From Candidatus Woesearchaeota archaeon (GTDB taxonomy: Archaea > Nanobdellota > Nanobdellia > Woesearchaeales > ARS49): 64,000 nt of DNA. The stretch lies in contig JACRKG010000045.1 in NCBI GenBank assembly GCA_016215315.1, positions 19,204-83,203 of the forward strand, given 5' to 3'. Positions 39,711 through 58,780 of this stretch are shown here, in pieces (the first letter of the stretch is position 1; each line of letters opens with the position of its first letter). The notes under the pieces were generated by a model, which searched no databases, was not told where the DNA came from, and was given only the letters and a program-made list of their open reading frames with translations. The position numbers were made by a program, and so were the translations under genes.

Positions 39711-39941
39711 TCATTTCTTATCATGCCACTTTTTAATTGATAGATAAACATATCCAACCAAAGAAGAAACCAAAAAGAATATCACAAAACTTGCAATAAA
39801 TCTTCCACCTAAGTAACCTAGTAATTCACTAAAAATCATATTGTTTTCTGGAGGATGTGTTGCTAAACTTAATACTGCCCAAATTAAAGAAACTATTGAA
39901 ATCTTTTTCCAGTACTTTTCATAAAAGTTTTTTATTTTCAT
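39711..39941 (-). CDS. Small membrane protein
   Basis: Two hydrophobic helices; 4-nt overlap with upstream gene. Confidence 0.4.
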   Translation of the reverse strand: MKIKNFYEKYWKKISIVSLIWAVLSLATHPPENNMIFSELLGYLGGRFIASFVIFFLVSSLVGYVYLSIKKWHDKK

Positions 39942-40777
39942 TTCTTTCTTTTTGATGTATTTGCTATCATTTGTTCACCTTTCTTGACTTCAATTTCCAA
40001 CTTTTTAATGTCTTCTTCGGGCGGAAGTTCTTCAGGTTTTATTCCTCTTTTATTTAATAATTTTCTAACATCTGCATTATTTCTCATGTGCTCTTTTGAT
40101 ATGCTTTTTTCTCCTTTCAGATCGTCTTTTTTAATACTAAAATTGGTAATTTCAGTAGCAAGATTTTTAGCAGTGATAGTTATTGTAGGAAGAAAATCTG
40201 CAAGCGGTCTGCTTTGAGGCACGCCAAACTTGTTCTTCATTTGTGCTGTAGTTTTACCTCCAAAAAGAACTTGATCGCCTTTACTTCTTATTCTCGCAAA
40301 ACCATCATCATCAACTCCCCGCTCATAAATTAATTTTGATAATTCAGTTTCTGAGGCGACAAGCTTCTGTCTAGCATTAAGTCTTTCAACAAGTGCGATT
40401 CTTTGTTCTATTAATTCTTGCTTTCTTGTTTGAACTGCAAAATAGCTTTGAGCAAATGCAATTTCTTCTTTTCTCGGATCCCCATTTTGAGCTATAAGAT
40501 AACAAGCGTATCTGGTGAGCATAATATCTTCAATTTCTCTTTTAGCTCCAGATCCGATATCTACCATTTTCTTAACGTCAGGAAAATGGTCATTTGTGCT
40601 GTGTCCTGACTTCTTGCAAGCTATTTTTGCTTTTTCAATAACATGAACAAAGTTCTCCCATTTATCATAACCTAATAGAACCTGTAAATCTCTGGCAAAC
40701 CAAAATTCAACTCCTTCTGCTTCTTGAGCATAGTCTTCAAATGTTTTTTTCAGTTTTTTTATTATCTCTTTTTCCAT
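39938..40777 (-). CDS. DNA-damage-inducible protein D (DinD)-family protein
   Basis: EFWFARDLQVLLGYDKWENF...KKMVDIGSGAKREIEDIMLTRYACYLIAQNGDP matches DinD N-terminal signature. Confidence 0.65.
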   Translation of the reverse strand: MEKEIIKKLKKTFEDYAQEAEGVEFWFARDLQVLLGYDKWENFVHVIEKAKIACKKSGHSTNDHFPDVKKMVDIGSGAKREIEDIMLTRYACYLIAQNGDPRKEEIAFAQSYFAVQTRKQELIEQRIALVERLNARQKLVASETELSKLIYERGVDDDGFARIRSKGDQVLFGGKTTAQMKNKFGVPQSRPLADFLPTITITAKNLATEITNFSIKKDDLKGEKSISKEHMRNNADVRKLLNKRGIKPEELPPEEDIKKLEIEVKKGEQMIANTSKRKK

Positions 40778-44984: not shown

Positions 44985-45095
44985 AAAAAATACTGCGTAT
45001 TTTTTAGTTTATAAAACTTTTTAGGAAAACAAGCAACTCAAGCGTGATGCGCACTACTGTGCTTACCCGCAAATACTTTTTTTCAGGTTCATGAT

Positions 45096-45168
45096 TAGCT
45101 CCGCTCGGATTTGAACCGAGGTCTAGAGGGCCAGAACCTCTTATGCTTGACCACTACACCACGGAGCT
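45096..45168 (-). tRNA. tRNA-Gln(CTG)
   Basis: Reverse complement folds: acceptor AGCTCCG/CGGAGCT, anticodon stem AGAGG/CCTCT loop TTCTGGC, T-arm CTCGG-TTCAAAT-CCGAG. Confidence 0.7.
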
Positions 45169-45204
45169 ATTTGATAACAGAAACTAGATTAGTATTATAA
45201 ATTT

Positions 45205-46113
45205 TTATTGCTGTGCTGGCGGTTTGTTTTCTGTTGGTGGAGGAGGATTGTTTTTATTTAGTTCGTCTTTAATTCTGTGAAAAACATCGCTTTTTCTTGC
45301 GTTTAAATCGTTGATTTTTTCTTTTCTTAATTTTATAGAAGAACTAAGAACATCAAATAAGTTTTGTGTTGAGGATAGACAAGTTTCGATCATATTTGTT
45401 ATTGTTTCGCTTTTCCAGGTTAATTTCGCTTCGTTCATTGAACTTAATAATTCATAGATTTTCTCAAAAGAACTTATTATGCTGTTAAATATTAGTTCTG
45501 TATTAACTGAGTCTATGTTTTTCACAAAAATGGAGTCATCTGATTTATTTATCAAAGCAAAAGTTTCTCTGAGAGAATCTTCTAATGGAGAAATAAAATT
45601 GTACATACTGATTATTTCTCTTCTTCTTATACTGCCATCTTCAACTTTAGTTATCATTCTATCTAAGTTTTGTCTGAACAATAAAAGAGAAGATCTTAAT
45701 TTGTTTATTCTCTCAGTAAACGAAAGGTCGTACAATTCATTGAGTATTGCGTCTTGTTTTATCGAAACTAATTTTGAAGTTACTAACGCTAAAAGCAATA
45801 GTCCTGAAATAACTTCCAATATGGCAATCAGTTTAAACGAACCTGTAGGGATGATATCTCCAAAACCAGTAGTTGTTGCAGAAACAAAACTAAAATAGAG
45901 TGAATCAGTAACACTATTTACGGGTGTTTCTTTTGCAACATAAAGAAGAAAAGAATTACTTCCGCTGAAAAAATAGTAAATAAATCCAAAAAGAATAATT
46001 GCGAAAATCCAGAAAATAAGAATATTGGCAAAACTGACTTTATCAAGGAAGCTAGTTAGTTTTTTCTGTTTTAAGCTTCTAAAAAATGCATCAATATCCA
46101 GAAAATCTTTCAC
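45205..46113 (-). CDS. Two-TM potassium channel with cytoplasmic C-terminal domain
   Basis: Selectivity-filter-like ATTTGFGDI between two TM helices. Confidence 0.6.
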   Translation of the reverse strand: MKDFLDIDAFFRSLKQKKLTSFLDKVSFANILIFWIFAIILFGFIYYFFSGSNSFLLYVAKETPVNSVTDSLYFSFVSATTTGFGDIIPTGSFKLIAILEVISGLLLLALVTSKLVSIKQDAILNELYDLSFTERINKLRSSLLLFRQNLDRMITKVEDGSIRRREIISMYNFISPLEDSLRETFALINKSDDSIFVKNIDSVNTELIFNSIISSFEKIYELLSSMNEAKLTWKSETITNMIETCLSSTQNLFDVLSSSIKLRKEKINDLNARKSDVFHRIKDELNKNNPPPPTENKPPAQQ

Positions 46114-46213: not shown

Positions 46214-47164
46214 TTGATGGGGATAAATCCTGAACTAAAATCGCACTTGGCACACTTGGGTAATTTAGGAATCTTTACTGCGTATAGATCAATGCCTTTT
46301 TTTCATTTACTAAAATACACCGGTTTTACTAATTTTACAGAACAGAGAGGTTGTATGTCAGTTAAGAATAAATCTTCAAAAACAGATGATTTAATTGACT
46401 GGCTAGAAATAGTCTTGAATGATAATGTTTTGAGATTTGATGAATGGGGGCAAATTCTTGAGTGTAAATTAACAGATGAAGATCAGAAAGAATTGATTGT
46501 TGTACTAAAAGGTTTTGAAGAATACTTAGTGCATTCTTTATTCAGAACGTATTTTTTTAAGAGTACTGTTGGAGTTGATGCTCCTTTAGAGGATTACTTG
46601 AACATGAACGTTTGTCCTATTGTAGTTGAGTTTTACAATTTTATCGAGTCTGATTTTAAAAAAATAGAACCATTGCTCAAAGAAGCAAAAATAACTGTTG
46701 AAAAACTTAAATTTTTCAAAAGCGAATATAATATTGAGGTTGAACTTGGAAAGGATTTTTTGAAACTGAGCGCAAAAAATTCTTTCATAAAGATTCCTTT
46801 AGTTAAATTTGAAAGGCATTACTTCACTCAGACTTACAAAGCAAGAGGGGATATCTTATATTCTTATGTAAAATTCAGAGACCAATGGATGAATGTTCCC
46901 GAACCATCAAAATTCACTTTAGATCCTCTCAATACTGGTATTTCAGCAATATATTTCTCGGAGTATTATGATAAAAAAGTGAGAGAAACAGAATCGGGAA
47001 AAGAATCAATGGAAGAAATAGACAAATCTTTTCCGCTAAAACAAAAAATCTCTTTGGTAGAATATCAAGGAGACCAGAAAATATGTGCTCGTCTCGCAGG
47101 AAGATTACTTTGTTCTTTGGGAAGTTATATGGCTAAAAATGGAAAAAACTTATTAGTGTTATGA
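46214..47164 (+). CDS. Hypothetical protein (316 aa)
   Basis: ORF. Confidence 0.45.
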   Translation: MMGINPELKSHLAHLGNLGIFTAYRSMPFFHLLKYTGFTNFTEQRGCMSVKNKSSKTDDLIDWLEIVLNDNVLRFDEWGQILECKLTDEDQKELIVVLKGFEEYLVHSLFRTYFFKSTVGVDAPLEDYLNMNVCPIVVEFYNFIESDFKKIEPLLKEAKITVEKLKFFKSEYNIEVELGKDFLKLSAKNSFIKIPLVKFERHYFTQTYKARGDILYSYVKFRDQWMNVPEPSKFTLDPLNTGISAIYFSEYYDKKVRETESGKESMEEIDKSFPLKQKISLVEYQGDQKICARLAGRLLCSLGSYMAKNGKNLLVL

Positions 47165-47706
47165 TTATAATTAGCCCATGTTTGAGCTTGACCTTTGAAT
47201 TTTTCACTCGCTTCTATTCTGTGTATTACACTTTCATTACAAGGCTTATATTTTTTCTTTACTTCTTAATAAGCGGTGAAAACATGGTCAAACAAACTAA
47301 TGTATTTGAAAAGATTGAACAATTTAAAAATGTTTTGAAGCCTTTAACGGTTGGAAAAACAGATCAAGACATAAAATTAATGCTTTGTCATTGTAAGCAT
47401 TACAATCTCAGTCTAAGAAAAAGCTTAACTACAGAAGAATATGCTTTAAATGATTTTCTTATGAAAAAAGGTTTGAATGCTAAAACTATTTATGAAAATT
47501 TTGTATTCATAGATTATCCTCAAAGCATAAAGAACTTGTTAGCAGAGAGGAAGATTTCCATAAAAGAAGCGCAATCGCGTTTTATGGCAATTAAAAAATT
47601 GGTAAACGTGAGGGATGGTAAAGATTTAATGACTGAAATAAAATCAGTCATAAGGAGGTTAGAATGGTCTGGGCTCAACAAAACTATCACAACACAGGAA
47701 ATTTAA
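47161..47706 (+). CDS. Hypothetical protein (181 aa)
   Basis: ORF overlapping by 4 nt. Confidence 0.45.
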   Translation: MIIISPCLSLTFEFFTRFYSVYYTFITRLIFFLYFLISGENMVKQTNVFEKIEQFKNVLKPLTVGKTDQDIKLMLCHCKHYNLSLRKSLTTEEYALNDFLMKKGLNAKTIYENFVFIDYPQSIKNLLAERKISIKEAQSRFMAIKKLVNVRDGKDLMTEIKSVIRRLEWSGLNKTITTQEI

Positions 47707-48497
47707 GCAAAACTCAAGAAAAAAAGAGAAAAAGAAAAAGATTTCCTAATGTATTTTTCAAGAACGAAATAACTGAATTATTTGACAATATTGAAGATCT
47801 TAAAACGATGATGGCTAGTTTTTTGGCTTTCTTTTGCGCATTAAGAAATAGTGAAGTATGCAAACTAAAATGGCAAGATATAGACTTAGAAAACAAAAGA
47901 TTAAAGGTTGTGGACGGTAAAAACCACAAAGACGGATTTATACCAATAAGTTCTGTATGCATACCAATACTCAGAAAATGGCGGCAAATAAACTCTGAGT
48001 CAGAATATTTTTTGTCGGGGGAAGCAAAAGGGCTGCCGTTCTTAAGCTCGCATGCATTACTGGAGCGCTTTAAAGTTGCATTATCCAGAGCAAATCTTGA
48101 CATTCCAACAGAGAAAAATGCGGGAGGAAATCAACAGCATCAATACAAATTTCATACTTTGAGGCACTCTAGATGCACCCACTTATTGAACAATGGTGTG
48201 CCAATACAAAAAGTTCAGCACTTCATGAGGCACGACAAAATAGAAACAACAATGCATTACACGTGGATCTTAGACACAGAATTAAACAAAATGGTAGAAA
48301 AAGTTGATACTTCGCCAATGAAAATGTATCAAGAAATAATGCCGGAAAACAATCAATTTACTCAAACACAAACAATAGTGCAGCAAGAACACAGCAATCC
48401 AATAGAAATCGCCAAAAGACGCTTAGCATTTGGAGAAATCAGCCCCAGAGAATTTAAAAGAATAGTTGGAGTGCTTCAAACACCGCTAAGTGTCTGA
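47664..48497 (+). CDS. Tyrosine recombinase/integrase (XerC/XerD/phage integrase family)
   Basis: ALRNSE (R), HTLRHS (HxxR), RHDKIETTMHY (R/H...Y) catalytic signature. Confidence 0.75.
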   Translation: MVWAQQNYHNTGNLSKTQEKKRKRKRFPNVFFKNEITELFDNIEDLKTMMASFLAFFCALRNSEVCKLKWQDIDLENKRLKVVDGKNHKDGFIPISSVCIPILRKWRQINSESEYFLSGEAKGLPFLSSHALLERFKVALSRANLDIPTEKNAGGNQQHQYKFHTLRHSRCTHLLNNGVPIQKVQHFMRHDKIETTMHYTWILDTELNKMVEKVDTSPMKMYQEIMPENNQFTQTQTIVQQEHSNPIEIAKRRLAFGEISPREFKRIVGVLQTPLSV

Positions 48498-48524
48498 AAA
48501 GTTACTTCTTTTTTTCAGTCCATT

Positions 48525-48800
48525 TTGGACTGCTTTTTTTCTTCAACCCAATATTTATTCTCACTTATCTTTCATAAGAATATGAAAAATAAAAAAATAA
48601 AAAAGCAAAAAAACAGATATAGGTTCAACTTTATTGAAGAAGAACCGGCAGTTTCTTTTTGTGAAATTTGCGGCGTCCCTTCAAAAGACGCTAAAGTAAT
48701 GTTTTCTAGAAAATTCAAGTGCGAAATTTGTACAACCTGCTACGAGGAAAGACTAAATGAAAACACAGGGGATGTTATAGATCCAAAATGGTGGAAATAA
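48525..48800 (+). CDS. Zinc-ribbon small protein
   Basis: CEICG...CEICTTC. Confidence 0.4.
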   Translation: MDCFFSSTQYLFSLIFHKNMKNKKIKKQKNRYRFNFIEEEPAVSFCEICGVPSKDAKVMFSRKFKCEICTTCYEERLNENTGDVIDPKWWK

Positions 48801-48831
48801 AAGTTCAAAAATATCAAGGAGGAAAAACAAA

Positions 48832-49251
48832 ATGACAAATGAAATACAAAAATATGATCCGCAGGCTTTTGCGGCGCAGAGAGTTTATGACAGGCTCACA
48901 GAGCCTTTAGAAGATTTAACGTCAGTTCAACAGATTAACACTATTGCTGTAGGTGTTGGAAACTTGAAAAGAACTCTTGAAGAAGTAGTTGAAAAGTTAA
49001 AAGACAAAGCTGTTGACGAACAAAAGAAAGTCGTTGGAGAAAAAGACGATAAAGTGCAAAATGTTTATTCTGGACTTGATAAAGCCAGAAGAACTAACGA
49101 CTTTGAAATGTACGACAAAGTGAGCATGGATGTAATCAGAGCAATCATGCAGGCTAAAGGCTCAGTTTCTGATTTGAGATTGTTACAAGCTGGAGATTTT
49201 GATGGTTACGTGAAAAGTCAAAAACTTCTTACAGAAGGTGATGCGAAATGA
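48832..49251 (+). CDS. Hypothetical protein
   Basis: AGGAGG SD. Confidence 0.45.
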   Translation: MTNEIQKYDPQAFAAQRVYDRLTEPLEDLTSVQQINTIAVGVGNLKRTLEEVVEKLKDKAVDEQKKVVGEKDDKVQNVYSGLDKARRTNDFEMYDKVSMDVIRAIMQAKGSVSDLRLLQAGDFDGYVKSQKLLTEGDAK

Positions 49252-49778
49252 ATGATTTAGACCAAAAACTCAAACAGTATGAGACTACTGCTGTTGATGT
49301 TACTAACAAAATGTATGATCCTAATCTCAGAACTGAGAGCAGCAAAGAGGTTTTAGAGAATTTTCCGAATGTCAGGCTGGCTTCGGAAAAACAAGAAAAC
49401 AAAGCAGTTATTGGGCGGAAAGGAATTAATTTCCTTTCTGCCTTATTTTTATCAGCAGGAATAGGCATCGGAGGATACTTTGTTGGCAACTATCAAGGAA
49501 AACATCATGGATTCGAGAAAGGACAAGAAATATTACTGAGAGAAATTACAAGAAATTATTTCGACAGCAAAACAAGAAGTTATCTAGGGCATGAAAGGTT
49601 TTACACAAAAATAATGAGTCCTGCAATTCTTGGAAGGGAACCGACAAGCAAAGAGTTTGATATAATTCTTGATGAAGTACTAAACACTATTGTTCCAGAA
49701 AGCGGCTTGCCTCTAAGAGAACACATAACTGAAAGTTCAAAACATGGCTACTTTTATTTTGGAGGTGTAAAAAAATGA
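49248..49778 (+). CDS. Hypothetical membrane-associated protein
   Basis: One TM (INFLSALFLSAGIGIGGYFVG). Confidence 0.45.
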   Translation: MNDLDQKLKQYETTAVDVTNKMYDPNLRTESSKEVLENFPNVRLASEKQENKAVIGRKGINFLSALFLSAGIGIGGYFVGNYQGKHHGFEKGQEILLREITRNYFDSKTRSYLGHERFYTKIMSPAILGREPTSKEFDIILDEVLNTIVPESGLPLREHITESSKHGYFYFGGVKK

Positions 49779-50170
49779 AAGCAATACAAATTTTCTTTTT
49801 TTCTTTACTTTATTTTTTAGTTTATTTAACAATAAGTTTGGCTATTGATTTGTATTTCGGCTTAGAAACGAGTATTCCTGAACTTGTAACTATTGGTTTG
49901 ATGTTTAACCTTTTACTGATTGTTTTGCTTGTTTTTGAAGTTCCAGACAAGATTGCTGAAAAGTTTGCCAGAAAAAAGGAAAGTGTTTTGTTCTACATAA
50001 CTGAAGACGTAAAAGATGATAAAAATACTTCTGAATTGTTGGAAACTCTTGAAGGAAACGCAACAAAAATAGAATCCCCTAAGAAGTCTGAAGAAAAATC
50101 CAATGAGAAAATCATAGAAGCTGAATTTGTGAAACAAGTTCAAGATCAAAAAGAAGAAAACATATACTGA
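49775..50170 (+). CDS. Membrane protein
   Basis: Two N-terminal TM helices. Confidence 0.45.
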   Translation: MKAIQIFFFSLLYFLVYLTISLAIDLYFGLETSIPELVTIGLMFNLLLIVLLVFEVPDKIAEKFARKKESVLFYITEDVKDDKNTSELLETLEGNATKIESPKKSEEKSNEKIIEAEFVKQVQDQKEENIY

Positions 50171-50182
50171 GGAGGTAAAAAA

Positions 50183-50533
50183 ATGGAAACAATTAACATT
50201 TTGCTTAAAATTTTGATGTACATTTTAATAATTACAACCCCATTAATACTTGGGTCAAAATTAGTTAACGCTTACCCTTACAATACTATCAGCAGTCAGG
50301 ATCAGCAAAAGATTGACGAAATCATGGCTCCATTCAACAAAGTATTCAATTTCGTTAGAATCGCAGCTGGTTCTGTAGCAGTTTTTGTTCTTATTTTAGC
50401 TGGAGTGGTTTACATGACTGCTGGAAGTGATGTTGGAAAGAAAGAGAAAGCCAAAAACATGGCCACCGGAGTTATTGTTGGACTAATGATTTTTGTTGTA
50501 GCACCAACAGCAGTACAATACCTAATAACTTGA
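50183..50533 (+). CDS. TrbC/VirB2-like pilin candidate
   Basis: 116 aa, long signal/TM, second hydrophobic helix near C-terminus, GGAGG SD. Confidence 0.4.
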   Translation: METINILLKILMYILIITTPLILGSKLVNAYPYNTISSQDQQKIDEIMAPFNKVFNFVRIAAGSVAVFVLILAGVVYMTAGSDVGKKEKAKNMATGVIVGLMIFVVAPTAVQYLIT

Positions 50534-50543
50534 GGAAAAAATA

Positions 50544-51491
50544 ATGAAAAAACAATCTAGATACTTACAAGTATCAATAATTTTAATTGCATTATTGCTC
50601 ACTTTTAATTCAGTTAGTGCGAGCCACAATGATGATGAAGAACCTCCAGATAAAGGCTTTTTTGGCAACATCTTTGATGACTTAACTGATGCAATAACTG
50701 CAATACCTGAGATGTTATTAGATTTGTTTCTCGACATAATTAACGCTCCAATTAGACCTTTATTGAGTTTTATTAAAACTCTTCTAGGTGAGCCACCGAG
50801 CACAAGTATTTTTAAAAGTATTTGGAGTATAGTTGTCTACATTTTCAGTTTTTGTTTTAGTTTGATTCTTGTTTTTTGCGGTTTCAGTTTTATTCTTTCA
50901 GGGCATGATGTTGAGAAAAGAGAAAAAGCTAAAGATTGGCTAAAAAACACATTAATATTGATTATTTTGTTGCCTGCAAGTTACTTTATTTATGAATTAA
51001 TTCTTCAATTTAGTGCAGGACTTACAAATTTTGTCTTAAACATAATACGTCCAGAATTTTTTTTAATAACTTCAAATAATCTTGGAGATATTTTCTTAAG
51101 CCTCGCGTTATCAATACCTTACTTAATTGTCTTGTTATTAACTGGCATTGTTTTAGTTATTCGTTATGCACTCATTAGTGCAGGAGTGATATTTTTTCCT
51201 ATAGGAATCTTTTTTTATTTCATCAGTCCACTTAAAAGTTATGGTAGTTTTATAATTAATTTTTTGATGATAAATATATTTATAGGTTTCATTAACGCAT
51301 TGTTTTTGCTTGCATTTTCTAAGCTTGTTGAACTACCTGTATTTAGTACTTTGAAAATTCTAGTCATGATCTCAGCTTTTTTGATTATTGATTTAATAAC
51401 AATTTTTGCGATGGTTTTCGCACTCATCAAAGCAGCAGTAAACTTCGGAAAGACCGTTGTTAATCCAGTAGTTAAAATTGTAAAACCATAA
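50544..51491 (+). CDS. Polytopic membrane protein (VirB6/TrbL-like candidate)
   Basis: Signal peptide plus at least 6 TM helices. Confidence 0.4.
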   Translation: MKKQSRYLQVSIILIALLLTFNSVSASHNDDEEPPDKGFFGNIFDDLTDAITAIPEMLLDLFLDIINAPIRPLLSFIKTLLGEPPSTSIFKSIWSIVVYIFSFCFSLILVFCGFSFILSGHDVEKREKAKDWLKNTLILIILLPASYFIYELILQFSAGLTNFVLNIIRPEFFLITSNNLGDIFLSLALSIPYLIVLLLTGIVLVIRYALISAGVIFFPIGIFFYFISPLKSYGSFIINFLMINIFIGFINALFLLAFSKLVELPVFSTLKILVMISAFLIIDLITIFAMVFALIKAAVNFGKTVVNPVVKIVKP

Positions 51492-51495
51492 AAAA

Positions 51496-52449
51496 ATGAA
51501 TGATACTCAAACTTTTCGGAAATTGAATGTTGTTGACTTCTTTTGCGGAGCTGGAGGATTCAGCAAAGGTTTCGAGCAAGCAGGCTTCAACATATTGGCA
51601 GGAATAGATTTTAATGAGAATGCAATAGCCACGTTCAAACAAAATCATTCTGGTAAAGGGGTTGTCAGGGACATAAAAAAGTTGTCTCTAAAAGAGTTTA
51701 ATGAGCTCACAGGATGTTCTGGCGTCGATGTTTTGATCGGTGGCTTTCCGTGTCAAGGATTTAGTCTTCTTGGGAAGCGTAACAAAAAAGATCCTAGAAA
51801 TCTTTTATACAGAGAATTATTACGTTTCATTGAAGGATTAAAGCCTGAGTTTGTTATTCTTGAAAATGTGAGGGGTTTGGCTTCAATGAAGGATTCTAAA
51901 AATAATTCTGTTTTATCCTCTATACTGCAAGAAATTATTTCACTAGGTTACTGTGTTAGTTACAAAGTTTTGCTGGCAAGCGATTATGGAGTTCCACAAA
52001 ACCGTGAGCGATTAATCATTTTTGCACAGAAAATAAACTTTTTTGACATTCCAAAAATTGAAAATAAAACAACAGTGATTGAAGCTTTGCAAAACATTCC
52101 TGAAGGATTAAATGCTCACATTGTTGTAAATCATAAGCCAGAATATTCTGAGCGTTTAGCACAAGTTGCACAGGGTAAAAGTCTTGGAAAATTCAGATCT
52201 TGCATGAGACTTCAGGCAGATAAGCCAAGCAACACAATAACGAGCGGAGACTTAATACATCCAACACTCAATCGTTTCTTAACTCCTAGAGAAAGCGCGC
52301 GATTACAAGGTTTTAGCGACGATTTTGTTTTTTGCGGTGGAAGAGAAAGTATCAAGTTGCAAATTGGTAATGCAGTTCCTCCACTACTTGCTAAAGTTCT
52401 TGCAAATCAGCTATTAGCTGAGATTAATCGAGGTGTTTCAAATGTATGA
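51496..52449 (+). CDS. dcm: DNA (cytosine-5)-methyltransferase, no adjacent restriction enzyme recognised
   Basis: Motifs I FFCGAGGFS, IV GFPCQGFS, VI ENVRGL, VIII QNRERL, X GNAVPP. Confidence 0.9.
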   Translation: MNDTQTFRKLNVVDFFCGAGGFSKGFEQAGFNILAGIDFNENAIATFKQNHSGKGVVRDIKKLSLKEFNELTGCSGVDVLIGGFPCQGFSLLGKRNKKDPRNLLYRELLRFIEGLKPEFVILENVRGLASMKDSKNNSVLSSILQEIISLGYCVSYKVLLASDYGVPQNRERLIIFAQKINFFDIPKIENKTTVIEALQNIPEGLNAHIVVNHKPEYSERLAQVAQGKSLGKFRSCMRLQADKPSNTITSGDLIHPTLNRFLTPRESARLQGFSDDFVFCGGRESIKLQIGNAVPPLLAKVLANQLLAEINRGVSNV

Positions 52450-55195
52450 AATACCTCAAGAATTGCAATATTCTGAAAAGATTGTTTTTGGTTTAACATT
52501 GAAACAAACTTTTGTTGTATTAAGTACAGGAGTACTGGTCTATTTTACAATTTTCAAATGGCTCATCAGTCCTTGGATAAAATATTCTTTAGCTTTGTTG
52601 ATTGTTGTTCTTGGTGTTTTGTTTACTTTTTTCAAACTAGACCAGTTAATCTCGAACTTTTTGTTGTGGATTTGGAGCAAAAGAATTAAGTTTTTTCAAA
52701 GCCAATCATTGTTCGGAGTTCAAAAATTTGAGAATGATTTCATGTTTGTTAAGGGCGTTAGGACTGTTGTTCTTGAAGTTTTTCCAATGAATTATGGAAT
52801 AAAAAACAATACAGAACAAGAAAGTATTGTTAAAATTTTTAGAAAATTGTTGCAAAGCATTGATTATCCTACACAGTATTTTATGAGGACAGAACCTTTA
52901 GAAATAAAGAAATACCTTGAAGTTTTAGGAAATAAAGTTTCTGAAGTCTCTGCAAAAACTCAAAACAAAATTTATGAGGAACAATTTGCAGGTCTTGAAA
53001 AGCACTTAAATCAAACAATAAGTGAAAATAATCTTTGTAATAGAAAATTCTACATAATAATCCCAGAACTCGCTGGATTAGAAATTCAAGTCAAAATAGT
53101 AGAAGACAAAATCAAAAATCTCGGATTAAAAAGCAAAAGACTTATTGGTAAAGAACTTGAAAAACTCATCAAAGAATTTATTAATCAAGAAAACAAAGAG
53201 TTAAAGAATTGCAAGAATCATTTAGAAATTGGCAAGACTTTTCACAGAGTAATAACTGCTGTAGGCTATCCGAGAATAGTTGAAGCAGGATTTCTCGACA
53301 AAATAATCACTTTACAAGGAAATTTCGACTTAAGCATACATATACAACCAAAACAGATTAGCAAAACTATTGTTGATTTGAACAGAGACTTGCAAAAACA
53401 AAGAAGCGACTTGTACTCAGAACAACTAAAAAATATAATCAATCCAAGTTTAGAGATAAAATATGAAGATACTCGAAGAATTCTTGAAGAATTGCAAAAA
53501 GGAAAAGATAAACTCTTTGACGTCAGTTTATACATTAATTGCCGAGCTAATAAGTTAGATGAATTAAATCTCTTAACCCGTAAAGTCGAAGCAGAACTTA
53601 ACAGCACATTAATCATTCCAGAAGTTCAAAATTTCAAGCAATTACAAGGCTTGAAGAGTGTTGCTCCAACAAGCAAAAATATTTTGAAAGTTAATAGAAA
53701 CATTACAACAACGGCATTATCAGCATTTTTTCCTTTTACAAGCAAATTCTTAGAAATAGATAATTCTGGAGTGTGGTTTGGCTTGAACAAAAACAACATT
53801 CCAATAATCATTGATCCGTTCAAGTTGAGCAATCCTAATGGAGTTATATTGGCAACTTCTGGAGCAGGAAAAAGCTATTTAGCTAAATTGTTGATTTCTA
53901 GACAATTATTGACTGGAAGTCAAGTTATTATTATTGATCCTCAAGGAGAATACACTGATTTAGTGCAAAAATTTAATGGTCAAATTATTGATTTACACAC
54001 GAAAAGCAAAACAATAATTAATCCTTTGGATTTAATGAATAAAACTTACGAGGATAAACGTTTGTTCTTAATGGATTTAATAAAAGTAATTTTTGGAGAA
54101 ATAAGCCCCCATCAGAAAAGCATTATTGACAAAGCAATAAGCTTAGCTTACACAAAAAAAGGAATTACTGATGATCCGAATACTTGGAATAAGGAGCCTC
54201 CGAAACTAGAAGATGTTCTTCAAGAAATAGTAAAAATGAAGGCAAAGGCCAGTGAAGTTACTGAGTACGGCATTGCAGCTCTAGAAAACAAATTAGAACT
54301 TTACGTCAATGGTGTTTTCAAATTCTTAAATCAGCACACTCAATTAAAACTTAATAATCAATTGATTTGCTTTAATATCCAGAAATTACCTAATCAAGTT
54401 CAGCCGGTAATGATGTTCTTAATTTTGGATTTTGTTTATACAACAATGCAAAAAGAACTCAATAGAAAGATTTTACTTATTGATGAGTCATGGAAGTTAT
54501 TGTCAAGAACGGAAGATGCAGGCTACGTTTTTGCTATTGTAAAAACTTGTCGTAAGTTCAATATGGGACTTTTGCTTATCAATCAAGAAGTTGAAGGATT
54601 GCTAGAAAGCAGTGCAGGAAAAAGTGTTTTGGCAAACAGTTCATACACAATATTGCTTAAGCAGAAACCTTCAGTAATCAAGCAATTAAAAACAACTTTT
54701 GACCTTTCAGATTATGAAAGAGATTACTTGTTAACTGCTAATGTTGGTGAAGGAATACTTATTACGGATCAAGAGCATAATGAGCTAAAAATTATTGCTT
54801 CTAAAGCTGAGCACGATTTGATTACTACTAATGCTGACGAGAAATTACAACAAAAGAATAATAAGGTTGAAAAAAATGAAGACAACAAGCCAAAAGAAGA
54901 AAAACCTGTTAAGAAAACAGAACTTGATTTTACAAAAATAGCTTACGACAAAGAAATTCTTAGTAAAGAACAAATTGAGCTGTTGAAAAATAAAGGTTAT
55001 CAAGAATTTTCAGAAAAAATCTTCAGTACAACAAAAGCATACTTTGTAAAAAGCCAAAATAGTGAAGAAATTACTTGTTTATTCAATCTTTGCACAATAA
55101 CTGACTATTTGAGAAGTAAAAGTTTTAGCGCAAAAATAGTCAAGAAAAACAAGAAATTCTTTTTAGAGGTAGAAAAATGCCAGAAAACTCATTAA
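52433..55195 (+). CDS. VirB4/TrbE/CagE-family conjugative ATPase with N-terminal VirB3-like TM segment
   Basis: N-terminal 2 TM helices; Walker A ATSGAGKSY; Walker B LLIDESWKLL. Confidence 0.7.
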   Translation: MFQMYEIPQELQYSEKIVFGLTLKQTFVVLSTGVLVYFTIFKWLISPWIKYSLALLIVVLGVLFTFFKLDQLISNFLLWIWSKRIKFFQSQSLFGVQKFENDFMFVKGVRTVVLEVFPMNYGIKNNTEQESIVKIFRKLLQSIDYPTQYFMRTEPLEIKKYLEVLGNKVSEVSAKTQNKIYEEQFAGLEKHLNQTISENNLCNRKFYIIIPELAGLEIQVKIVEDKIKNLGLKSKRLIGKELEKLIKEFINQENKELKNCKNHLEIGKTFHRVITAVGYPRIVEAGFLDKIITLQGNFDLSIHIQPKQISKTIVDLNRDLQKQRSDLYSEQLKNIINPSLEIKYEDTRRILEELQKGKDKLFDVSLYINCRANKLDELNLLTRKVEAELNSTLIIPEVQNFKQLQGLKSVAPTSKNILKVNRNITTTALSAFFPFTSKFLEIDNSGVWFGLNKNNIPIIIDPFKLSNPNGVILATSGAGKSYLAKLLISRQLLTGSQVIIIDPQGEYTDLVQKFNGQIIDLHTKSKTIINPLDLMNKTYEDKRLFLMDLIKVIFGEISPHQKSIIDKAISLAYTKKGITDDPNTWNKEPPKLEDVLQEIVKMKAKASEVTEYGIAALENKLELYVNGVFKFLNQHTQLKLNNQLICFNIQKLPNQVQPVMMFLILDFVYTTMQKELNRKILLIDESWKLLSRTEDAGYVFAIVKTCRKFNMGLLLINQEVEGLLESSAGKSVLANSSYTILLKQKPSVIKQLKTTFDLSDYERDYLLTANVGEGILITDQEHNELKIIASKAEHDLITTNADEKLQQKNNKVEKNEDNKPKEEKPVKKTELDFTKIAYDKEILSKEQIELLKNKGYQEFSEKIFSTTKAYFVKSQNSEEITCLFNLCTITDYLRSKSFSAKIVKKNKKFFLEVEKCQKTH

Positions 55196-56232
55196 TAGAT
55201 AACGAATTATTTATTATTTCACTGTTTCTTATAGGAACTCCTTTAATTATTATAGGTTTCGTAAACACTAATTATTACATCATTCCAAATTTTTCAATGT
55301 ACAATTTATTTCTTGCCTTGCCGGGATTTGTTGGCATAATTGTATTCATTTGCGTTTTAACATACCTAATTCTAAAGATTTTTCACTTAGTACAGTATTT
55401 GTTTGTCCGGCGTAAAATAATTAGTTTAAAACAAAAAGAACAAACAATAAAAACACATCAAGAAAATCACATTGCTAAATTAAGCGAAGAGTTAGATAAA
55501 ATATTTCTTGAAGCAAAACCATTACTAAAAGCAGAAAACACCTTTGAAAACAAGCAAAAACTTGAAGAAATACAAAAAGAATTATTACAATCAAAATTCA
55601 AAGACTTAGAATTACACAAGAAAAGAATTCAATACGTTCAACAAATCGGAGAAAAAGTAAGAGAAATAGAAATCTACTTGAAAAGTAAAGAAAAAGAAAT
55701 ATTAGGTAAAGAAGAACAAAGATTAAAAGAATTAAAAGCAGAATGTGGGTACGTCAAAGGCGCAAAATTATCTGATTGGGATAAAGAATTGTTATTAAAA
55801 AGAGGTTTTGCCAAATTACAATGTAATGAGTTTTGTGGACGTGGAAATCCAGTATATTTCTTAAAACCGAGAGATAAAGAAACTCCAGAGCACTTCTTTT
55901 TAGTTAGGCATACTCAAGAATATCTTGAAAATAAAGGGATAACTGCAACAACACCTGAAAAAAGAGATGCAGATGTTATCTTTGAAATAAATGGAGTAAC
56001 TTATGCAATAGAAGTTGAAACTGGAACTTATCCTGAGAAGAAACCTGAAGAATTTGAAAATAAAATAAAACAATGCAATGACAAATACGGCAACAATTGG
56101 ATGTTTTTAGTGGTTCATAGAGATCTTATTTCATTCTATAAAAAGTACAATGCAAAAACATATCATCGTGAACAGATGGTGGAGGTGCTGGATGTAATAA
56201 CATCAACAAATCACATCAACAAAAATAATTGA
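55177..56232 (+). CDS. Membrane-anchored coiled-coil protein with C-terminal possible nuclease-like domain
   Basis: 2 N-terminal TM, K/E coiled coil, C-terminal DADVIFEINGVTYAIEVETG block. Confidence 0.45.
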   Translation: MPENSLIDNELFIISLFLIGTPLIIIGFVNTNYYIIPNFSMYNLFLALPGFVGIIVFICVLTYLILKIFHLVQYLFVRRKIISLKQKEQTIKTHQENHIAKLSEELDKIFLEAKPLLKAENTFENKQKLEEIQKELLQSKFKDLELHKKRIQYVQQIGEKVREIEIYLKSKEKEILGKEEQRLKELKAECGYVKGAKLSDWDKELLLKRGFAKLQCNEFCGRGNPVYFLKPRDKETPEHFFLVRHTQEYLENKGITATTPEKRDADVIFEINGVTYAIEVETGTYPEKKPEEFENKIKQCNDKYGNNWMFLVVHRDLISFYKKYNAKTYHREQMVEVLDVITSTNHINKNN

Positions 56233-56330
56233 AAAATTGATGTGGGATTTATAAAAAAATCACATCAATAAATTTGACAAAAACACAGAAAACTCTGAAA
56301 GAAAATCAGAAAACACATCAACAAAATTTC
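56200..56330. repeat. Iteron-like repeats CACATCAA(C/T)AAA (4 direct and 1 inverted copy)
   Basis: Copies at about 56201, 56212, 56261, 56314 and inverted TTGATGTG at 56237. Confidence 0.55.
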
Positions 56331-56375
56331 CACTTATATACATATAATTTTACTTAATATGGGGAGGGCAATAAA

Positions 56376-56651
56376 ATGGAAAATGAAACACAACAAAACA
56401 CAACACAAAGTGTGACACCAAGTGTGCCGCAAAGTACAACGCCAGTTTTCAAACCTAATGTAAATCAGGACGATAGCGTTGGTTCTTTTATCAGAAAACA
56501 AAACATCAAAACCAAAATTAATCAACTAGGCTGTCAAGTCGGAGTAGATTTTTATCCTCGCTTTAACGAATTTCTAGAAAGCACGATAGTAAAAGCAATC
56601 TTTAGAACTAAATGCAACAGAAGAAAAACTGTTCGTGGGATGGATATCTAA
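56376..56651 (+). CDS. Hypothetical protein
   Basis: GGGGAGGG SD. Confidence 0.4.
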   Translation: MENETQQNTTQSVTPSVPQSTTPVFKPNVNQDDSVGSFIRKQNIKTKINQLGCQVGVDFYPRFNEFLESTIVKAIFRTKCNRRKTVRGMDI

Positions 56652-56652
56652 A

Positions 56653-57186
56653 ATGACTTACGCAGTATATGTGAGAGTCAGCACGGAAGAGCAGAATTTG
56701 GATATGCAAAAACTTGAGATAAGCAATTATTGTCAGAGAATGGGCTGGAATTATGTGATTTACGAGGAGAAAGAAAGTACTAGAAAAACACGTCCAGTAA
56801 AACAATGGTTATTGCAGCAATTGCGTCTGAAAAAATTTGGTGGTGTGATCGTTTGGCGTTTGGACAGATGGGCTAGAAGTTTGCAAGAGTTAGTCATGGA
56901 TCTCGAGGAAATGACAAACAAAAACATAAAATTCATTTCACTTCGTGATAATGTTGACTACACTAGTGCAAGTGGTCGAGCGTTTACACAAATTTTGTGT
57001 GTCTTTGCAGAGTTCGAAAGACAATTAATAAGAGAAAGAACTCTAGCAGGATTAGCCAGGGCAAAAGCCGCAGGCATTAAACTCGGTCGTCCAAAAGGCA
57101 GCAAAGATGGAAAAGTCCGTCGGAAAAGCGGATACTACATGCGCTACATTCTGGAAAACAATAAGCACAAAGAATTCGCTCTTTGA
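56653..57186 (+). CDS. Serine recombinase (resolvase/invertase family)
   Basis: YVRVSTEEQ catalytic Ser motif; start taken at MTYAVY. Confidence 0.8.
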   Translation: MTYAVYVRVSTEEQNLDMQKLEISNYCQRMGWNYVIYEEKESTRKTRPVKQWLLQQLRLKKFGGVIVWRLDRWARSLQELVMDLEEMTNKNIKFISLRDNVDYTSASGRAFTQILCVFAEFERQLIRERTLAGLARAKAAGIKLGRPKGSKDGKVRRKSGYYMRYILENNKHKEFAL

Positions 57187-57326
57187 AAATATTTTTTTAT
57201 TTTTTTCTATTTTTAATACGAGCGAATAAGCGCCGTCCGTCGGTTTTGGTCATTTAGAGGCTGATTTTGCTTAACAGTCTGAATTTGTTTGGTTTGTATA
57301 TTTGAGGGGTTTTATCTTCTCACAAA

Positions 57327-57802: not shown

Positions 57803-58780
57803 ATGGATAAAACAGACCAGAAATTGTTATATGAACTAGAATTAAAATCGAATGAAAAAGATTCGATTCTAGCGAAAAAACTCAAAACTAGCAAACAAGT
57901 TATAGGGTACAGAATAAAACGTCTAACTTCTGAAAATATAATCAAACAATTTCAAACCGTTCTCAACATATCTAATTTAGGCGTACCTATTTGGGCACAC
58001 ATATATTTCAAATTATTGGAAGTTACAAAAGAAAAAGAAGAAGAAATAACAAAATATCTTGCCGAGAATAAGAAAATAGGATACCTTGCCATTTTAGGAG
58101 GCAGATTTGATTTATCTATTGTATTGGTTGCAAAAAATATACAAGAATTAGAGTTTGATTTAGAAGAAATTACGAGTAAATTCCCAGAACAATTAAAGAG
58201 TTATGATATTATATTGAGAACTTTTGGATGGAAATTCCCAAAAAAATATCTTCTTCAAGAAAAGAATATCGCTCATCATAAAGTTATACTCTCAAAAGAA
58301 ACAGACCTTGTGCAAATTGATTCAATTGATATTTCTATACTAAAGGAAATAACTAAAAATTCAAGAATATCTATAATGGATTTAAGAAAAAAATTAGATA
58401 TCCCATTCTCCACAGTTAGATCAAGGATTAAATCTCTAGAAAAGAAAAAAGTAATTGCAGGATATTCAATATTATTAGATTTACAGAAAATAGGATATAA
58501 TAATTATAAAGTATTTATGAAAACAAAAGACAATTCAAAAGATGCTTTTAATACACTCCGTGAATTTGCTTCTTCTCATCCTAATGTAACTTACTTTATG
58601 AAGACTTTCGGAGAACACAATTATGAACTAAGATTTGAGGTAGAAAGCCAAGAGAAATTCCAAGATGTAATCAAAGAAATAAGATCAAAATTCTCTGAAA
58701 TTATAGACGGATTAGAAACTGTTATTATTTTTAAAGAATTGAAAGAAGACTTTTCAGCAGTGCTGGAACACCTAGATTGA
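57803..58780 (+). CDS. Lrp/AsnC-family regulator with two tandem HTH plus ligand-binding modules
   Basis: Two repeats of DxxDxkLLxEL..n.R.S...lakkl..S...v..RIkrL....VI.gY. Confidence 0.55.
   Translation: MDKTDQKLLYELELKSNEKDSILAKKLKTSKQVIGYRIKRLTSENIIKQFQTVLNISNLGVPIWAHIYFKLLEVTKEKEEEITKYLAENKKIGYLAILGGRFDLSIVLVAKNIQELEFDLEEITSKFPEQLKSYDIILRTFGWKFPKKYLLQEKNIAHHKVILSKETDLVQIDSIDISILKEITKNSRISIMDLRKKLDIPFSTVRSRIKSLEKKKVIAGYSILLDLQKIGYNNYKVFMKTKDNSKDAFNTLREFASSHPNVTYFMKTFGEHNYELRFEVESQEKFQDVIKEIRSKFSEIIDGLETVIIFKELKEDFSAVLEHLD

What the first reader, a model, noticed from the sequence alone, without database searches (positions are those of the whole stretch)
56200..56330. Iteron-like CACATCAA(C/T)AAA repeats upstream of the serine recombinase
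Four direct copies and one inverted copy of a 12-mer lie within 130 nt, spanning the 3' end of gene 55177-56232 and the following intergenic region. That is just upstream of 56376-56651 and the serine recombinase. Such arrays are typical of plasmid replication origins or res/recombinase binding sites, which fits an episomal origin for the island.
Basis: seen in the sequence. Interest (0 to 1): 0.5.

Follow-up and report, generated by a model that had tools for sequence, protein, structure and literature searches.

The report
Element-specific DNA address array in archaeal ICE
The repeats are real and form a conserved five-site protein-docking array around a promoter in a conjugative island of a Woesearchaeota archaeon, but each related island uses its own repeat sequence and the neighbouring recombinase almost certainly does not read it.

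Summary
Observation confirmed. Four direct copies and one inverted copy of (A/C)ACATCAA(C/T)AAA lie in 56199-56325. The exact 11-mer occurs nowhere else in the 64 kb.

The same layout recurs in four related Woesearchaeota elements: a tandem pair 12-13 nt apart, an inverted copy, TTTATAAA, a third copy, then a fourth 53-54 nt on. Each element has a different core (AACATCGA, ACACGAG, GGGGCGAG, CGATCAA). TTTATAAA is this host's TATA-box consensus.

The recombinase (56653-57186) has no DNA-binding domain. It and the small histone-like protein (56376-56651) are 94% and 91% identical in a locus with an unrelated motif, so neither is likely to read the variable core.

The gene that ends in the repeats (55177-56232) is the most divergent of the array's neighbours. 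It encodes a membrane-anchored protein with a PD-(D/E)xK nuclease domain, which relatives fuse to the VirB4 conjugation ATPase.

Best reading (about 0.4): an element-specific address read by that nuclease. It would act as an oriT/clt-like processing site that also gates the promoter of the histone-recombinase operon. Rivals are a Sin-like res site, an operator for an unknown regulator, and iterons (least likely: no Rep gene detected). The reader protein is inferred, not shown.

The parts
56199..56210 (+). DR1, AACATCAACAAA, first copy of the tandem head-to-tail pair; lies inside the last codons of ORF 55177-56232
   Evidence: the same position carries the locus-specific motif in L003, L007, L009 and L019
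56212..56223 (+). DR2, CACATCAACAAA, 13 nt after DR1
   Evidence: 12-13 nt spacing conserved in five loci
56233..56244 (-). Inverted copy (CACATCAATTTT on the minus strand); left arm of a 9-nt perfect inverted repeat with DR3
   Evidence: (I9); an inverted copy of the local motif sits at the same offset in all five loci
56248..56255 (.). TTTATAAA (TATA1), a palindromic match to the host TATA-box consensus, centred between the inverted copy and DR3
   Evidence: 10 or more of the 14 TTTATAAA in the window sit 24-34 nt upstream of start codons. Exact in 4 of 5 related loci; L003 has ATATAAA
56261..56272 (+). DR3, CACATCAATAAA, right arm of the inverted repeat; lies between TATA1 and the expected transcription start (about 56278)
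56314..56325 (+). DR4, CACATCAACAAA, 53 nt after DR3; abuts the conserved box and the second promoter
   Evidence: 53-54 nt spacing conserved
56326..56341 (+). Conserved box ATTTCCACTTATATAC (CCCACTAATTAA in relatives), including the candidate TATA2 (TTATATAC, 56334-56341) of the histone-recombinase operon
   Evidence: alignment A3; resembles host leadered promoters such as that of gene 14900. Promoter function is inferred
55177..56232 (+). 351-aa protein: hydrophobic, probably membrane-spanning N-terminus, a central region that looks like a coiled coil, and a C-terminal PD-(D/E)xK nuclease-fold domain (residues about 190-345). Proposed reader of the repeats
56376..56651 (+). 91-aa protein with a disordered T/Q-rich tail and a histone-fold-like core that resembles face-to-face alpha3 histones; its stop codon lies 1 nt before the recombinase start codon
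   Evidence: profile hit to HLp, PDB 9QT0, E=0.0065; hhalign probability 79% over 52 columns; predicted helices 41-50 and 59-80; only 8 homologues, each beside the recombinase gene where the contig extends that far
56653..57186 (+). 177-aa serine recombinase: catalytic domain plus E-helix only, ending in ...GRPKGSKDGKVRRKSGYYMRY..., with no HTH domain
   Evidence: Pfam Resolvase 10-147 of the ORF as listed from GTG 56635; aligns to Gin residues 5-141 only; family alignment
52433..55195 (+). PrgI-VirB4 fusion ATPase of a monoderm-type conjugative T4SS; overlaps the start of ORF 55177-56232
   Evidence: NCBIfam conju_CD1110, 327.6 bits against a cutoff of 325

Best explanation
The five copies form a conserved nucleoprotein assembly site in which the variable 8-nt core acts as an element-specific address.

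Proposed reader (inferred). A rapidly diverging, element-encoded protein reads the core. The best candidate is the protein whose gene ends inside the array (55177-56232). It is membrane-anchored and carries a PD-(D/E)xK nuclease domain that relatives fuse directly to the VirB4 conjugation ATPase.

Proposed mechanism (inferred).
- Several nuclease subunits dock on DR1, DR3 and DR4, which lie about 5 and 6 helical turns apart and so face the same side of the helix, and on the inverted pair.
- The histone-like protein encoded immediately downstream wraps the roughly 50-bp spacers.
- The complex marks this one place in the island for DNA processing coupled to the T4SS. This parallels the bind site of five direct repeats used by the PD-(D/E)xK-type MOBC relaxase TraX, and the plasmid-specific 8-bp clt repeats read by Streptomyces TraB.
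- The inverted pair brackets a consensus TATA box and DR4 abuts the second promoter, so occupancy should also gate transcription of the histone-recombinase operon.

Shown: the array, its conserved geometry, the motif swapping between elements, the TATA match, the nuclease fold, the VirB4 fusions, and the lack of a DNA-binding domain in the recombinase.

Inferred: who binds, whether DNA is cut, and the direction of the effect on transcription.
For: 1. Five related loci keep the same geometry with different cores. The window and L019 score 31 of 32 in the fixed-offset test, L003 and L009 score 23, and L007 scores 21. The null maximum over 122,368 anchors is 25.
2. In each locus the core is confined to, or strongly concentrated in, this one site.
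3. Of the three genes next to the array, only the upstream one diverges in step with the motif change. Window versus L003: 41% for the upstream protein, against 91% (histone-like) and 94% (recombinase). L009 versus L019: VirB4 95%, upstream protein 72%, histone-like 85%, recombinase 92%. Window versus L009: 81-83% for VirB4 and the methylase, 47% for the upstream protein.
4. Between L009 and L019, divergence within the globular domain is concentrated in its last ~45 residues, right next to the array.
5. L009 and L019 come from one assembly (GCA_053533315.1) and carry different cores, as expected if the specificities have diverged to avoid cross-talk.
6. The upstream protein has a confident PD-(D/E)xK fold with invariant catalytic-type residues. 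In 8 of 34 homologues sampled it is fused to a VirB4/TraG-type P-loop ATPase domain.
7. In loci where the nuclease domain is fused to VirB4 and there is no promoter or inverted repeat, a locus-specific pair still sits at the DR3 and DR4 positions, 52-54 nt apart, at the 3' end of that gene. L005 matches 10 of 10 (p about 0.0016); L004 and L010 match 8 of 10.
8. TTTATAAA is the host TATA consensus and lies exactly between the arms.
9. Precedents: TraX of pAD1, a PD-(D/E)xK-type relaxase, binds five direct repeats, and no relaxase is known for archaeal conjugative plasmids (PMC12857230). clt regions contain plasmid-specific 8-bp direct repeats read by the cognate TraB (PMC4447253).
Against: - No binding or cleavage data exist.
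- Motif similarity against identity of the upstream protein gives only rho=0.54, p=0.11 over 10 non-independent pairs, and rho=0.0 for the four loci with long sequence.
- Other element proteins are equally variable. The early operon ORFs are 31-47% identical between the window and L009, and the AsnC-type regulator is 23% identical.
- The nuclease domain has no detectable sequence similarity to MOBC relaxases or to anything in 72,556 plasmids. No separate sequence-reading domain was identified.
- The hypervariable tract could be a recombination mosaic boundary rather than co-evolution.
- Support from the VirB4-fusion loci is statistically weak except for L005.
- TATA1 lacks the host AGAAAG BRE and lies 128 nt from the next ATG.
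Confidence: 0.4

Rival explanations
1. Sin-like res site. The inverted pair around the central TA (56252-56253) is the crossover site I, and the head-to-tail pair DR1-DR2 is an accessory site II. The histone-like protein is the architectural bender. The adjacent serine recombinase resolves multimers of the excised element and represses its own promoter.
For: - The array lies directly upstream of the recombinase operon in all five loci.
- Its composition mirrors Sin res, which has an inverted site I, a head-to-tail site II and a non-specific DNA-bending protein in an 86-bp site. Many resolution systems are Sin-like (PMC2428073).
- The 34-bp palindrome has a central TA.
- The histone-like gene ends 1 nt before the recombinase start codon.
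Against: - The recombinase has no HTH domain; only 29 residues follow GRPK.
- Its C-terminal tail is conserved across the sampled family members, and homologues are found in several bacterial and archaeal phyla.
- Recombinase and histone-like proteins at 94% and 91% identity pair with unrelated motifs, CACATCAA against GGGGCGAG.
- Motif similarity correlates negatively with identity of either protein.
- Relatives with the same two genes have no inverted repeat or tandem pair.
- An unidentified adaptor would be needed to read the core.
Confidence: 0.2
2. Pure operator. The copies are binding sites for a separate, not yet identified, element-encoded transcription factor. It represses or activates the TATA1 and TATA2 promoters of the histone-recombinase operon. 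Motif swapping would then reflect immunity-like divergence between related elements.
For: - The inverted pair brackets a perfect host TATA consensus at constant offsets in five loci, and DR4 abuts the second promoter-like box.
- Variable regulators exist in the elements, including an AsnC-type double wHTH protein (window 57803-58780; L009 16927-17961; L019 6517-7569) and small early ORFs.
- Two co-resident elements carry different cores.
Against: - The core is not found upstream of any candidate regulator gene or elsewhere in the element.
- In the VirB4-fusion loci a repeat pair persists although there is no promoter.
- The candidate regulators are not syntenic with the array.
- TATA1 lacks the host BRE and is 128 nt from the ATG.
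Confidence: 0.25
3. Iterons of a plasmid-type replication origin (oriV), bound by a Rep initiator, with the AT-rich spacer serving as the unwinding element.
For: Direct repeats combined with an inverted repeat and an AT-rich centre in a mobile element. The motif is element-specific, as in incompatibility groups.
Against: - No Rep, Orc1/Cdc6, MCM or primase-polymerase was detected in the element by Pfam, PHROGs, NCBIfam or PDB sequence search.
- The spacings (13, 49, 53 nt) and the single short 16-bp AT tract are unlike iteron origins.
- The adjacent genes are a nuclease, a histone-like protein and a recombinase.
Confidence: 0.05
4. Chance or compositional artefact of A-rich sequence, or a by-product of coding constraints at the 3' end of ORF 55177-56232.
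For: The region is A-rich. A naive best-8-mer family test is not significant in shuffles.
Against: - The exact 11-mer occurs 4 times against 0.33 expected.
- In the fixed-geometry test, no null anchor (maximum 25) reaches the 31 of the window and L019; 23 (L003, L009) is reached by about 0.02% of null anchors and 21 (L007) by about 0.2%.
- Only two of the five copies are coding in the window.
- The protein tails they encode are non-homologous and differ in length: the proteins are 351, 361 and 389 aa.
Confidence: 0.02

Closest known systems
oriT bind site of MOBC relaxase TraX (Enterococcus pAD1)
   Same: A PD-(D/E)xK-superfamily enzyme of a monoderm conjugation system binds a set of five short direct repeats, and no covalent relaxase-DNA intermediate is known (PMC12857230). 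Here a PD-(D/E)xK-fold protein tied to VirB4 sits next to five short repeats.
   Different: No detectable sequence similarity to MOBC relaxases or to any of 72,556 plasmids. This protein is membrane-anchored or fused to VirB4 and lacks the N-terminal wHTH described for TraX. The host is an archaeon. No nic site is known here.
clt locus and TraB of Streptomyces conjugative plasmids
   Same: Plasmid-specific 8-bp direct repeats are recognised by the C-terminal domain of the cognate transfer ATPase (PMC4447253). Here element-specific 8-nt cores lie at the 3' end of a gene whose domain is fused to the transfer ATPase in relatives.
   Different: TraB is an FtsK-like dsDNA translocase with a C-terminal clt-recognition domain. 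Here the ATPase is VirB4-like and the adjacent domain has a nuclease fold. The array also contains an inverted copy and a TATA box.
Sin/beta-type res sites of small serine resolvases
   Same: A site of about 90-130 bp upstream of the recombinase gene combines an inverted pair (site I) and a head-to-tail pair (site II) and depends on a non-specific DNA-bending protein (PMC2428073).
   Different: The recombinase here has no HTH domain and does not vary with the motif. The head-to-tail pair lies only 9 bp from the palindrome. There is a fifth copy 53 nt away. The architectural protein would be an element-encoded histone-fold protein rather than HU.
Iteron arrays of theta-replicating plasmids
   Same: Element-specific direct repeats together with an inverted repeat that overlaps a promoter.
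   Different: No Rep gene was detected, and the repeat length and spacing differ.
Archaeal operators that flank or overlap TATA/BRE (for example the SSV1 F55 tandem repeats; cited from memory, not checked here)
   Same: Short repeats flanking a TATA box in an archaeal mobile element.
   Different: Five copies spread over 127 bp with 49-53 nt spacings. Part of the array persists in relatives that have no promoter.

Membership tests
Iteron-type replication origin (oriV) | A Rep initiator gene adjacent to or within the element | tested here: not met
   Pfam, PHROGs, NCBIfam and PDB sequence searches of the island ORFs found no Rep, Orc, MCM or primase. Several ORFs remain unassigned.
Iteron-type replication origin (oriV) | Multiple regularly spaced direct repeats next to an extended AT-rich unwinding region. 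The typical 17-22 bp repeats at about 22-bp spacing are stated from general knowledge. | tested here: not met
   8-12 nt cores at 13, 49 and 53 nt spacing; the only AT tract is the 16-bp spacer.
res site of a small serine recombinase (resolvase/invertase) | The recombinase carries a C-terminal HTH domain that reads the 12-bp motif | tested here: not met
   Only the Resolvase N-terminal domain is detected. The protein aligns to Gin residues 5-141 and ends 29 residues after GRPK.
res site of a small serine recombinase (resolvase/invertase) | The motif covaries with its recombinase across related elements | tested here: not met
   A 94% identical recombinase sits beside an unrelated motif (window against L003). 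Correlation rho = -0.19 to -0.41.
res site of a small serine recombinase (resolvase/invertase) | An inverted-repeat crossover site with a central dinucleotide, plus accessory sites, upstream of the recombinase gene | tested here: met
   34-bp palindrome centred on TA 56252-56253, a head-to-tail pair and a further copy, 51 nt upstream of the operon's first gene (56376).
res site of a small serine recombinase (resolvase/invertase) | Recombination between two copies of the site | not testable with these tools
   Requires an in vivo or in vitro resolution assay.
MOBC-type relaxase with its oriT | Sequence homology of the nuclease to MOBC relaxases (TraX, CloDF13 MobC) | tested here: not met
   tblastn of the nuclease domain against 72,556 plasmids gave no match at E<=1e-3. 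No Pfam or NCBIfam family was assigned.
MOBC-type relaxase with its oriT | PD-(D/E)xK fold with conserved acidic and Lys residues | tested here: met
MOBC-type relaxase with its oriT | Site-specific binding to direct repeats and nicking at a nearby nic site | not testable with these tools
   Requires EMSA or footprinting and nicking assays.
Streptomyces clt/TraB system | FtsK-like translocase with a C-terminal clt-recognition domain | tested here: not met
   The ATPase is VirB4/CD1110-type, and the adjacent or fused domain has a nuclease fold.
Archaeal promoter with operator | Match to the host TATA-box consensus | tested here: met
   TTTATAAA at 56248-56255. At least 10 of the 14 copies in the window sit at promoter positions.
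Archaeal promoter with operator | BRE (AGAAAG in this host) and a start codon or TSS at the usual 24-34 nt distance | tested here: not met
   No A-rich BRE on either side; the next ATG is 128 nt away. The TSS itself cannot be determined here.
Face-to-face (FtF) alpha3 histones, for the 91-aa protein | Histone-fold alpha1-L1-alpha2-L2 with the RD clamp and the tetramerisation residues R49, N53 and R55 of HLp | tested here: inconclusive
   Profile hit to HLp 9QT0, E=0.0065. hhalign probability 79%. The residues align 1:1 when one search is compared with PMC12701072. The AF2 monomer reaches only pLDDT 57 and its fold search was uninformative.

The most novel reading that the evidence does not exclude
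The array is the oriT-like bind site of a previously unrecognised archaeal conjugative DNA-processing machine. Its enzyme would be a membrane-anchored PD-(D/E)xK nuclease that is coupled, and in relatives fused, to the VirB4 ATPase. It would read an element-specific 8-nt address, assisted by an element-encoded histone that wraps the roughly 50-bp spacers and by a serine recombinase without a DNA-binding domain. This would be the relaxosome equivalent that has not been found in archaeal conjugative elements.
Probability: 0.2. Interest if true: 0.85.

Novelty: new variant of a known kind. Interest (0 to 1): 0.6.

Why it matters
No relaxase or oriT has been identified for archaeal conjugative plasmids (PMC12857230), and T4SS-bearing islands of DPANN archaea are essentially uncharacterised.

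This locus offers a compact, testable cis site with a clear candidate reader, a nuclease tied to VirB4. Five related elements carry five different cores in one fixed layout, which amounts to natural specificity-swap controls.

It also pairs a serine recombinase that lacks a DNA-binding domain with a histone-fold protein. That raises the question of how this large recombinase family (3,376 database hits) finds its sites.

If the array turns out to be only an operator or a res site, it remains a useful and well-defined example of rapid site and reader divergence between co-resident archaeal elements.

Tried and rejected
- Rfam scan of 55900-56800: no hit. The inverted repeat folds as a ssDNA hairpin (z = -3.9), but a hairpin does not explain the co-varying direct copies.
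- att-type repeats between the tRNA-Gln region and the rest of the window: nothing of 16 nt or longer, only 14-15-nt AT-rich chance matches. The island ends were not determined.
- Near-copies at 45204 and 46119: chance. The one at 46119 is the Shine-Dalgarno region of gene 45205-46113.
- A leaderless small ORF downstream of TATA1 (TTG at 56274, 27 aa): not conserved in relatives, so dropped.
- Viral contigs searched with the small protein and the nuclease domain: nothing. Plasmids and phages searched with the nuclease domain: nothing. Genome contigs searched with the small protein: nothing.
- Eighty loci of the wider recombinase family: none encodes the histone-like protein or the nuclease domain. 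Their upstream small ORFs are heterogeneous (XRE, RHH, membrane proteins). The four checked show no comparable array.
- Naive best-8-mer enrichment test: underpowered in A-rich DNA. Replaced by the fixed-geometry test.
- Motif against protein distance correlation: inconclusive for the nuclease, negative for the recombinase and the histone-like protein.
- Restriction-modification pairing of the nuclease with the C5 methylase: rejected. The methylase is 83% identical between loci with different cores and is absent from the VirB4-fusion loci.
- attP of the tyrosine integrase: rejected. The array lies in the middle of the integrated island, and a 16-bp spacer is too long for a tyrosine-recombinase core.
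- Fold search with the low-confidence model of the small protein: meaningless, as expected.
Full report
**The observation**

The sequence holds the following copies:
- DR1, AACATCAACAAA, 56199-56210.
- DR2, CACATCAACAAA, 56212-56223.
- An inverted copy at 56233-56244, which reads CACATCAATTTT on the minus strand.
- DR3, CACATCAATAAA, 56261-56272.
- DR4, CACATCAACAAA, 56314-56325.

The inverted copy and DR3 form a perfect 9-nt inverted repeat with a 16-nt spacer. The exact 11-mer ACATCAAYAAA occurs four times, all here, against 0.33 expected in 64 kb. One-mismatch hits elsewhere match the chance expectation, and one of them is a ribosome-binding region.

**Context**

The window comes from a Candidatus Woesearchaeota genome. 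The recombinase is 100% identical to an NCBI Woesearchaeota protein on an 88.9-kb contig. Split RpoA' and Taw1 confirm an archaeon.

The array lies in an island next to tRNA-Gln (45095-45169). The island encodes:
- a tyrosine integrase (47664-48497);
- two T4SS pilins;
- a C5 DNA methylase;
- a PrgI-VirB4 ATPase (52433-55195), which passes the NCBIfam cutoff for CD1110-type conjugal ATPases;
- a 351-aa protein (55177-56232);
- a 91-aa protein (56376-56651);
- a serine recombinase, whose real start is ATG 56653.

**Comparative result, the key finding**

The 91-aa protein has only eight homologues among 5.8 billion clusters. Wherever the contig reaches far enough, the recombinase gene follows it directly. 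Contigs for these and for close recombinase homologues were fetched.

The 12-mer itself is not conserved. Four loci that also have a separate upstream gene share the architecture: L003, L007, and L009 and L019, the last two both from assembly GCA_053533315.1. The layout is a tandem pair 12-13 nt apart, an inverted copy, TTTATAAA, a third copy, a fourth copy 53-54 nt further on, and then a conserved CCCACTAATTAA box. Each locus has its own core:

| Locus | Core |
|---|---|
| window | CACATCAA |
| L019 | AACATCGA |
| L009 | ACACGA(G/C) |
| L003 | G(G/T)GGCGA(G/C) |
| L007 | C(C/T)CGATCAA |

A fixed-offset test scores 31 of 32 for the window and L019, 23 for L003 and L009, and 21 for L007. The null over 122,368 anchors has mean 13.4 and maximum 25. 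In each locus the core is confined to, or strongly concentrated in, this one place.

This is the signature of a specific protein-DNA recognition site whose specificity has been re-set repeatedly while the scaffold has been kept.

**Who does not read it**

The recombinase consists of the catalytic domain and E-helix only. It aligns to Gin residues 5-141 and ends 29 residues after GRPK in a tail (RRKSGYYxRY). That tail is conserved across the sampled members of a family with 3,376 database hits, found in Bacteroidota, Omnitrophota, Woesearchaeota and Methanosarcinales.

Between the window and L003 the recombinase is 94% identical and the 91-aa protein 91% identical, with differences confined to the disordered tail. 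Yet the cores are unrelated, CACATCAA against GGGGCGAG. Motif similarity correlates negatively with identity of either protein. Direct reading of the variable core by either protein is therefore unlikely.

**Who might read it**

The gene that ends inside the array is a local divergence hot spot between conserved neighbours:

| Comparison | Upstream protein | Neighbours |
|---|---|---|
| window vs L003 | 41% | histone-like 91%, recombinase 94% |
| window vs L009 | 47% | VirB4 81%, methylase 83%, recombinase 75% |
| L009 vs L019 | 72% | VirB4 95%, recombinase 92% |

Within the globular domain, L009 and L019 differ most in the last ~45 residues, next to the array. The protein tails encoded by DR1 and DR2 are non-homologous and differ in length. 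In L019 the ORF runs on through all the copies, so the constraint acts on the DNA, not on the peptide.

In those fusion loci (L001, L004, L005, L010 and its copies) there is no inverted repeat and no TATA box. A locus-specific pair still sits 52-54 nt apart at the DR3 and DR4 positions, at the 3' end of the fused gene. L005 matches 10 of 10 (p about 0.0016). L004 and L010 match 8 of 10 (p about 0.15 each). L001 is not significant.

Correlation of motif similarity with identity of this protein is positive but not significant (rho 0.54, p 0.11). It vanishes in the four-locus subset.

**Promoter aspect**

Upstream regions of the window's genes give a clear host promoter consensus: AGAAAG-n-TTTATAAA, 24-34 nt before the start codon. 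At least 10 of the 14 TTTATAAA in the window are at such positions. The remaining notable copy is at 56248-56255, centred between the inverted arms. It is exact in four of the five loci; L003 has ATATAAA. It lacks the BRE and lies 128 nt from the next ATG. A second, leadered promoter-like element (TTATATAC at 56334, then GGGGAGGG) follows DR4 and the conserved box.

Any protein that occupies the arms and DR4 should therefore influence TBP and TFB access. This follows from the geometry; no transcription start sites are known.

**The 91-aa protein**

Its conserved C-terminal 52 residues match HLp of Leptospira (PDB 9QT0), with profile E=0.0065 and hhalign probability 79%. HLp is a face-to-face alpha3 histone that forms tetramers and wraps about 60 bp of DNA without sequence preference (PMC12701072). 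Residues equivalent to R49, N53, R55, T57 and D62 are retained. The monomer model is of low confidence, and its fold search gave nothing.

A wrapper of about 60 bp fits the 49-54 nt spacers. It would bring DR1, DR3 and DR4, which are in helical phase (62 and 53 nt), together. This is inference.

**Weighing the explanations**

- Iterons/oriV: no initiator gene was detected and the geometry is wrong. Estimate 0.05.
- Sin-like res: the composition (inverted pair, head-to-tail pair, architectural protein) and the position upstream of the recombinase are strikingly similar (PMC2428073). Against it, the recombinase cannot read the core, does not covary with it, and keeps its partner in relatives that lack the palindrome. 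Estimate 0.2.
- Pure operator for an unidentified regulator: supported by the bracketed TATA box, but it does not explain the repeat pair in promoter-less relatives, and no reader is in hand. Estimate 0.25.
- Best: an element-specific address read by the adjacent T4SS-linked nuclease, serving as an oriT/clt-like processing site that also gates the operon's promoters. Estimate 0.4. Functional precedents are the five direct repeats bound by the PD-(D/E)xK-type MOBC relaxase TraX, the absence of any known archaeal relaxase (PMC12857230), and the plasmid-specific 8-bp clt repeats read by TraB (PMC4447253).

Membership in those two precedent families is not claimed. The nuclease domain has no detectable similarity to any plasmid-encoded protein, and the ATPase is VirB4-type, not FtsK-type.

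**Verdict**

The array is a new archaeal variant of the known kind of element-specific repeat arrays. Its interest comes from the natural specificity swaps, the VirB4-linked nuclease, and the pairing of a histone-like protein with a recombinase that lacks a DNA-binding domain.

Noticed in passing
window 56376-56651 and 56653-57186: A histone-fold-like 91-aa protein ends 1 nt before the start codon of a serine recombinase that has no DNA-binding domain. Its best match is the face-to-face alpha3 histone HLp, PDB 9QT0. The pairing is seen only in this small Woesearchaeota clade (8 homologues).
   Followed up: partly
window 56653-57186; loci L020-L099: The recombinase belongs to a large family (3,376 hits) of about 165-195-aa serine recombinases that end in GRPxGSKDxxxRRKSGYxxRY with no HTH domain. 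Members occur in Bacteroidota, Omnitrophota, Woesearchaeota and Methanosarcinales. The small ORFs upstream are heterogeneous (XRE, RHH, membrane proteins). How these enzymes find their sites is unclear.
   Followed up: partly
window 55177-56232; L001 4252-7155; L010 6369-9290: A PD-(D/E)xK nuclease-fold domain of unknown family (368 representatives) occurs either on a membrane-anchored protein of about 350 aa encoded after VirB4, or fused to the C-terminus of VirB4 itself.
   Followed up: partly
window-wide, e.g. 18857, 23065, 31376, 35965/35987, 38126, 45008, 46147: The host promoter consensus is AGAAAG-n-TTTATAAA, 24-34 nt upstream of start codons, which implies mostly leaderless mRNAs. A minority of genes have a GAGGTG-type Shine-Dalgarno sequence.
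   Followed up: partly
L009 (9540-9690) and L019 (2560-2710), both GCA_053533315.1: Two related conjugative elements in one assembly carry the same array architecture with different cores (ACACGAG against AACATCGA, which differ essentially by one inserted T). This is consistent with specificity divergence between co-resident elements, although binning artefacts cannot be excluded.
   Followed up: partly
window 45095-45169 and 46214-57186: The island sits near tRNA-Gln, but no att-type direct repeat of 16 nt or longer was found and its ends are undetermined. The tyrosine integrase is internal (47664-48497). A divergent AsnC-type double-wHTH regulator (57803-58780) recurs downstream in L009 and L019, so the element may extend beyond the recombinase.
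   Followed up: partly
window 57174-57227: An inverted repeat ATTCGCTC...GAGCGAAT with a T-rich 38-nt loop overlaps the recombinase stop codon. It is probably a transcription terminator.
   Followed up: no
window 56326-56341; L003, L009, L019 at the aligned positions: A conserved box, (A)AAAyyCCACTAATTAA, follows DR4 in all five loci and does not vary with the motif. It could be a promoter element, or a site for one of the conserved proteins (recombinase or histone-like).
   Followed up: no
window 39938-40777 (-); L009 12929-13750: A Bro-N domain protein is encoded about 5 kb on the far side of tRNA-Gln in the window and inside the L009 element. This hints at further mobile DNA on that side.
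   Followed up: no
window 51496-52449: A C5 cytosine DNA methylase is embedded in the T4SS operon directly upstream of VirB4 and is 83% identical in L009. It is an orphan methylase, possibly for anti-restriction.
   Followed up: no
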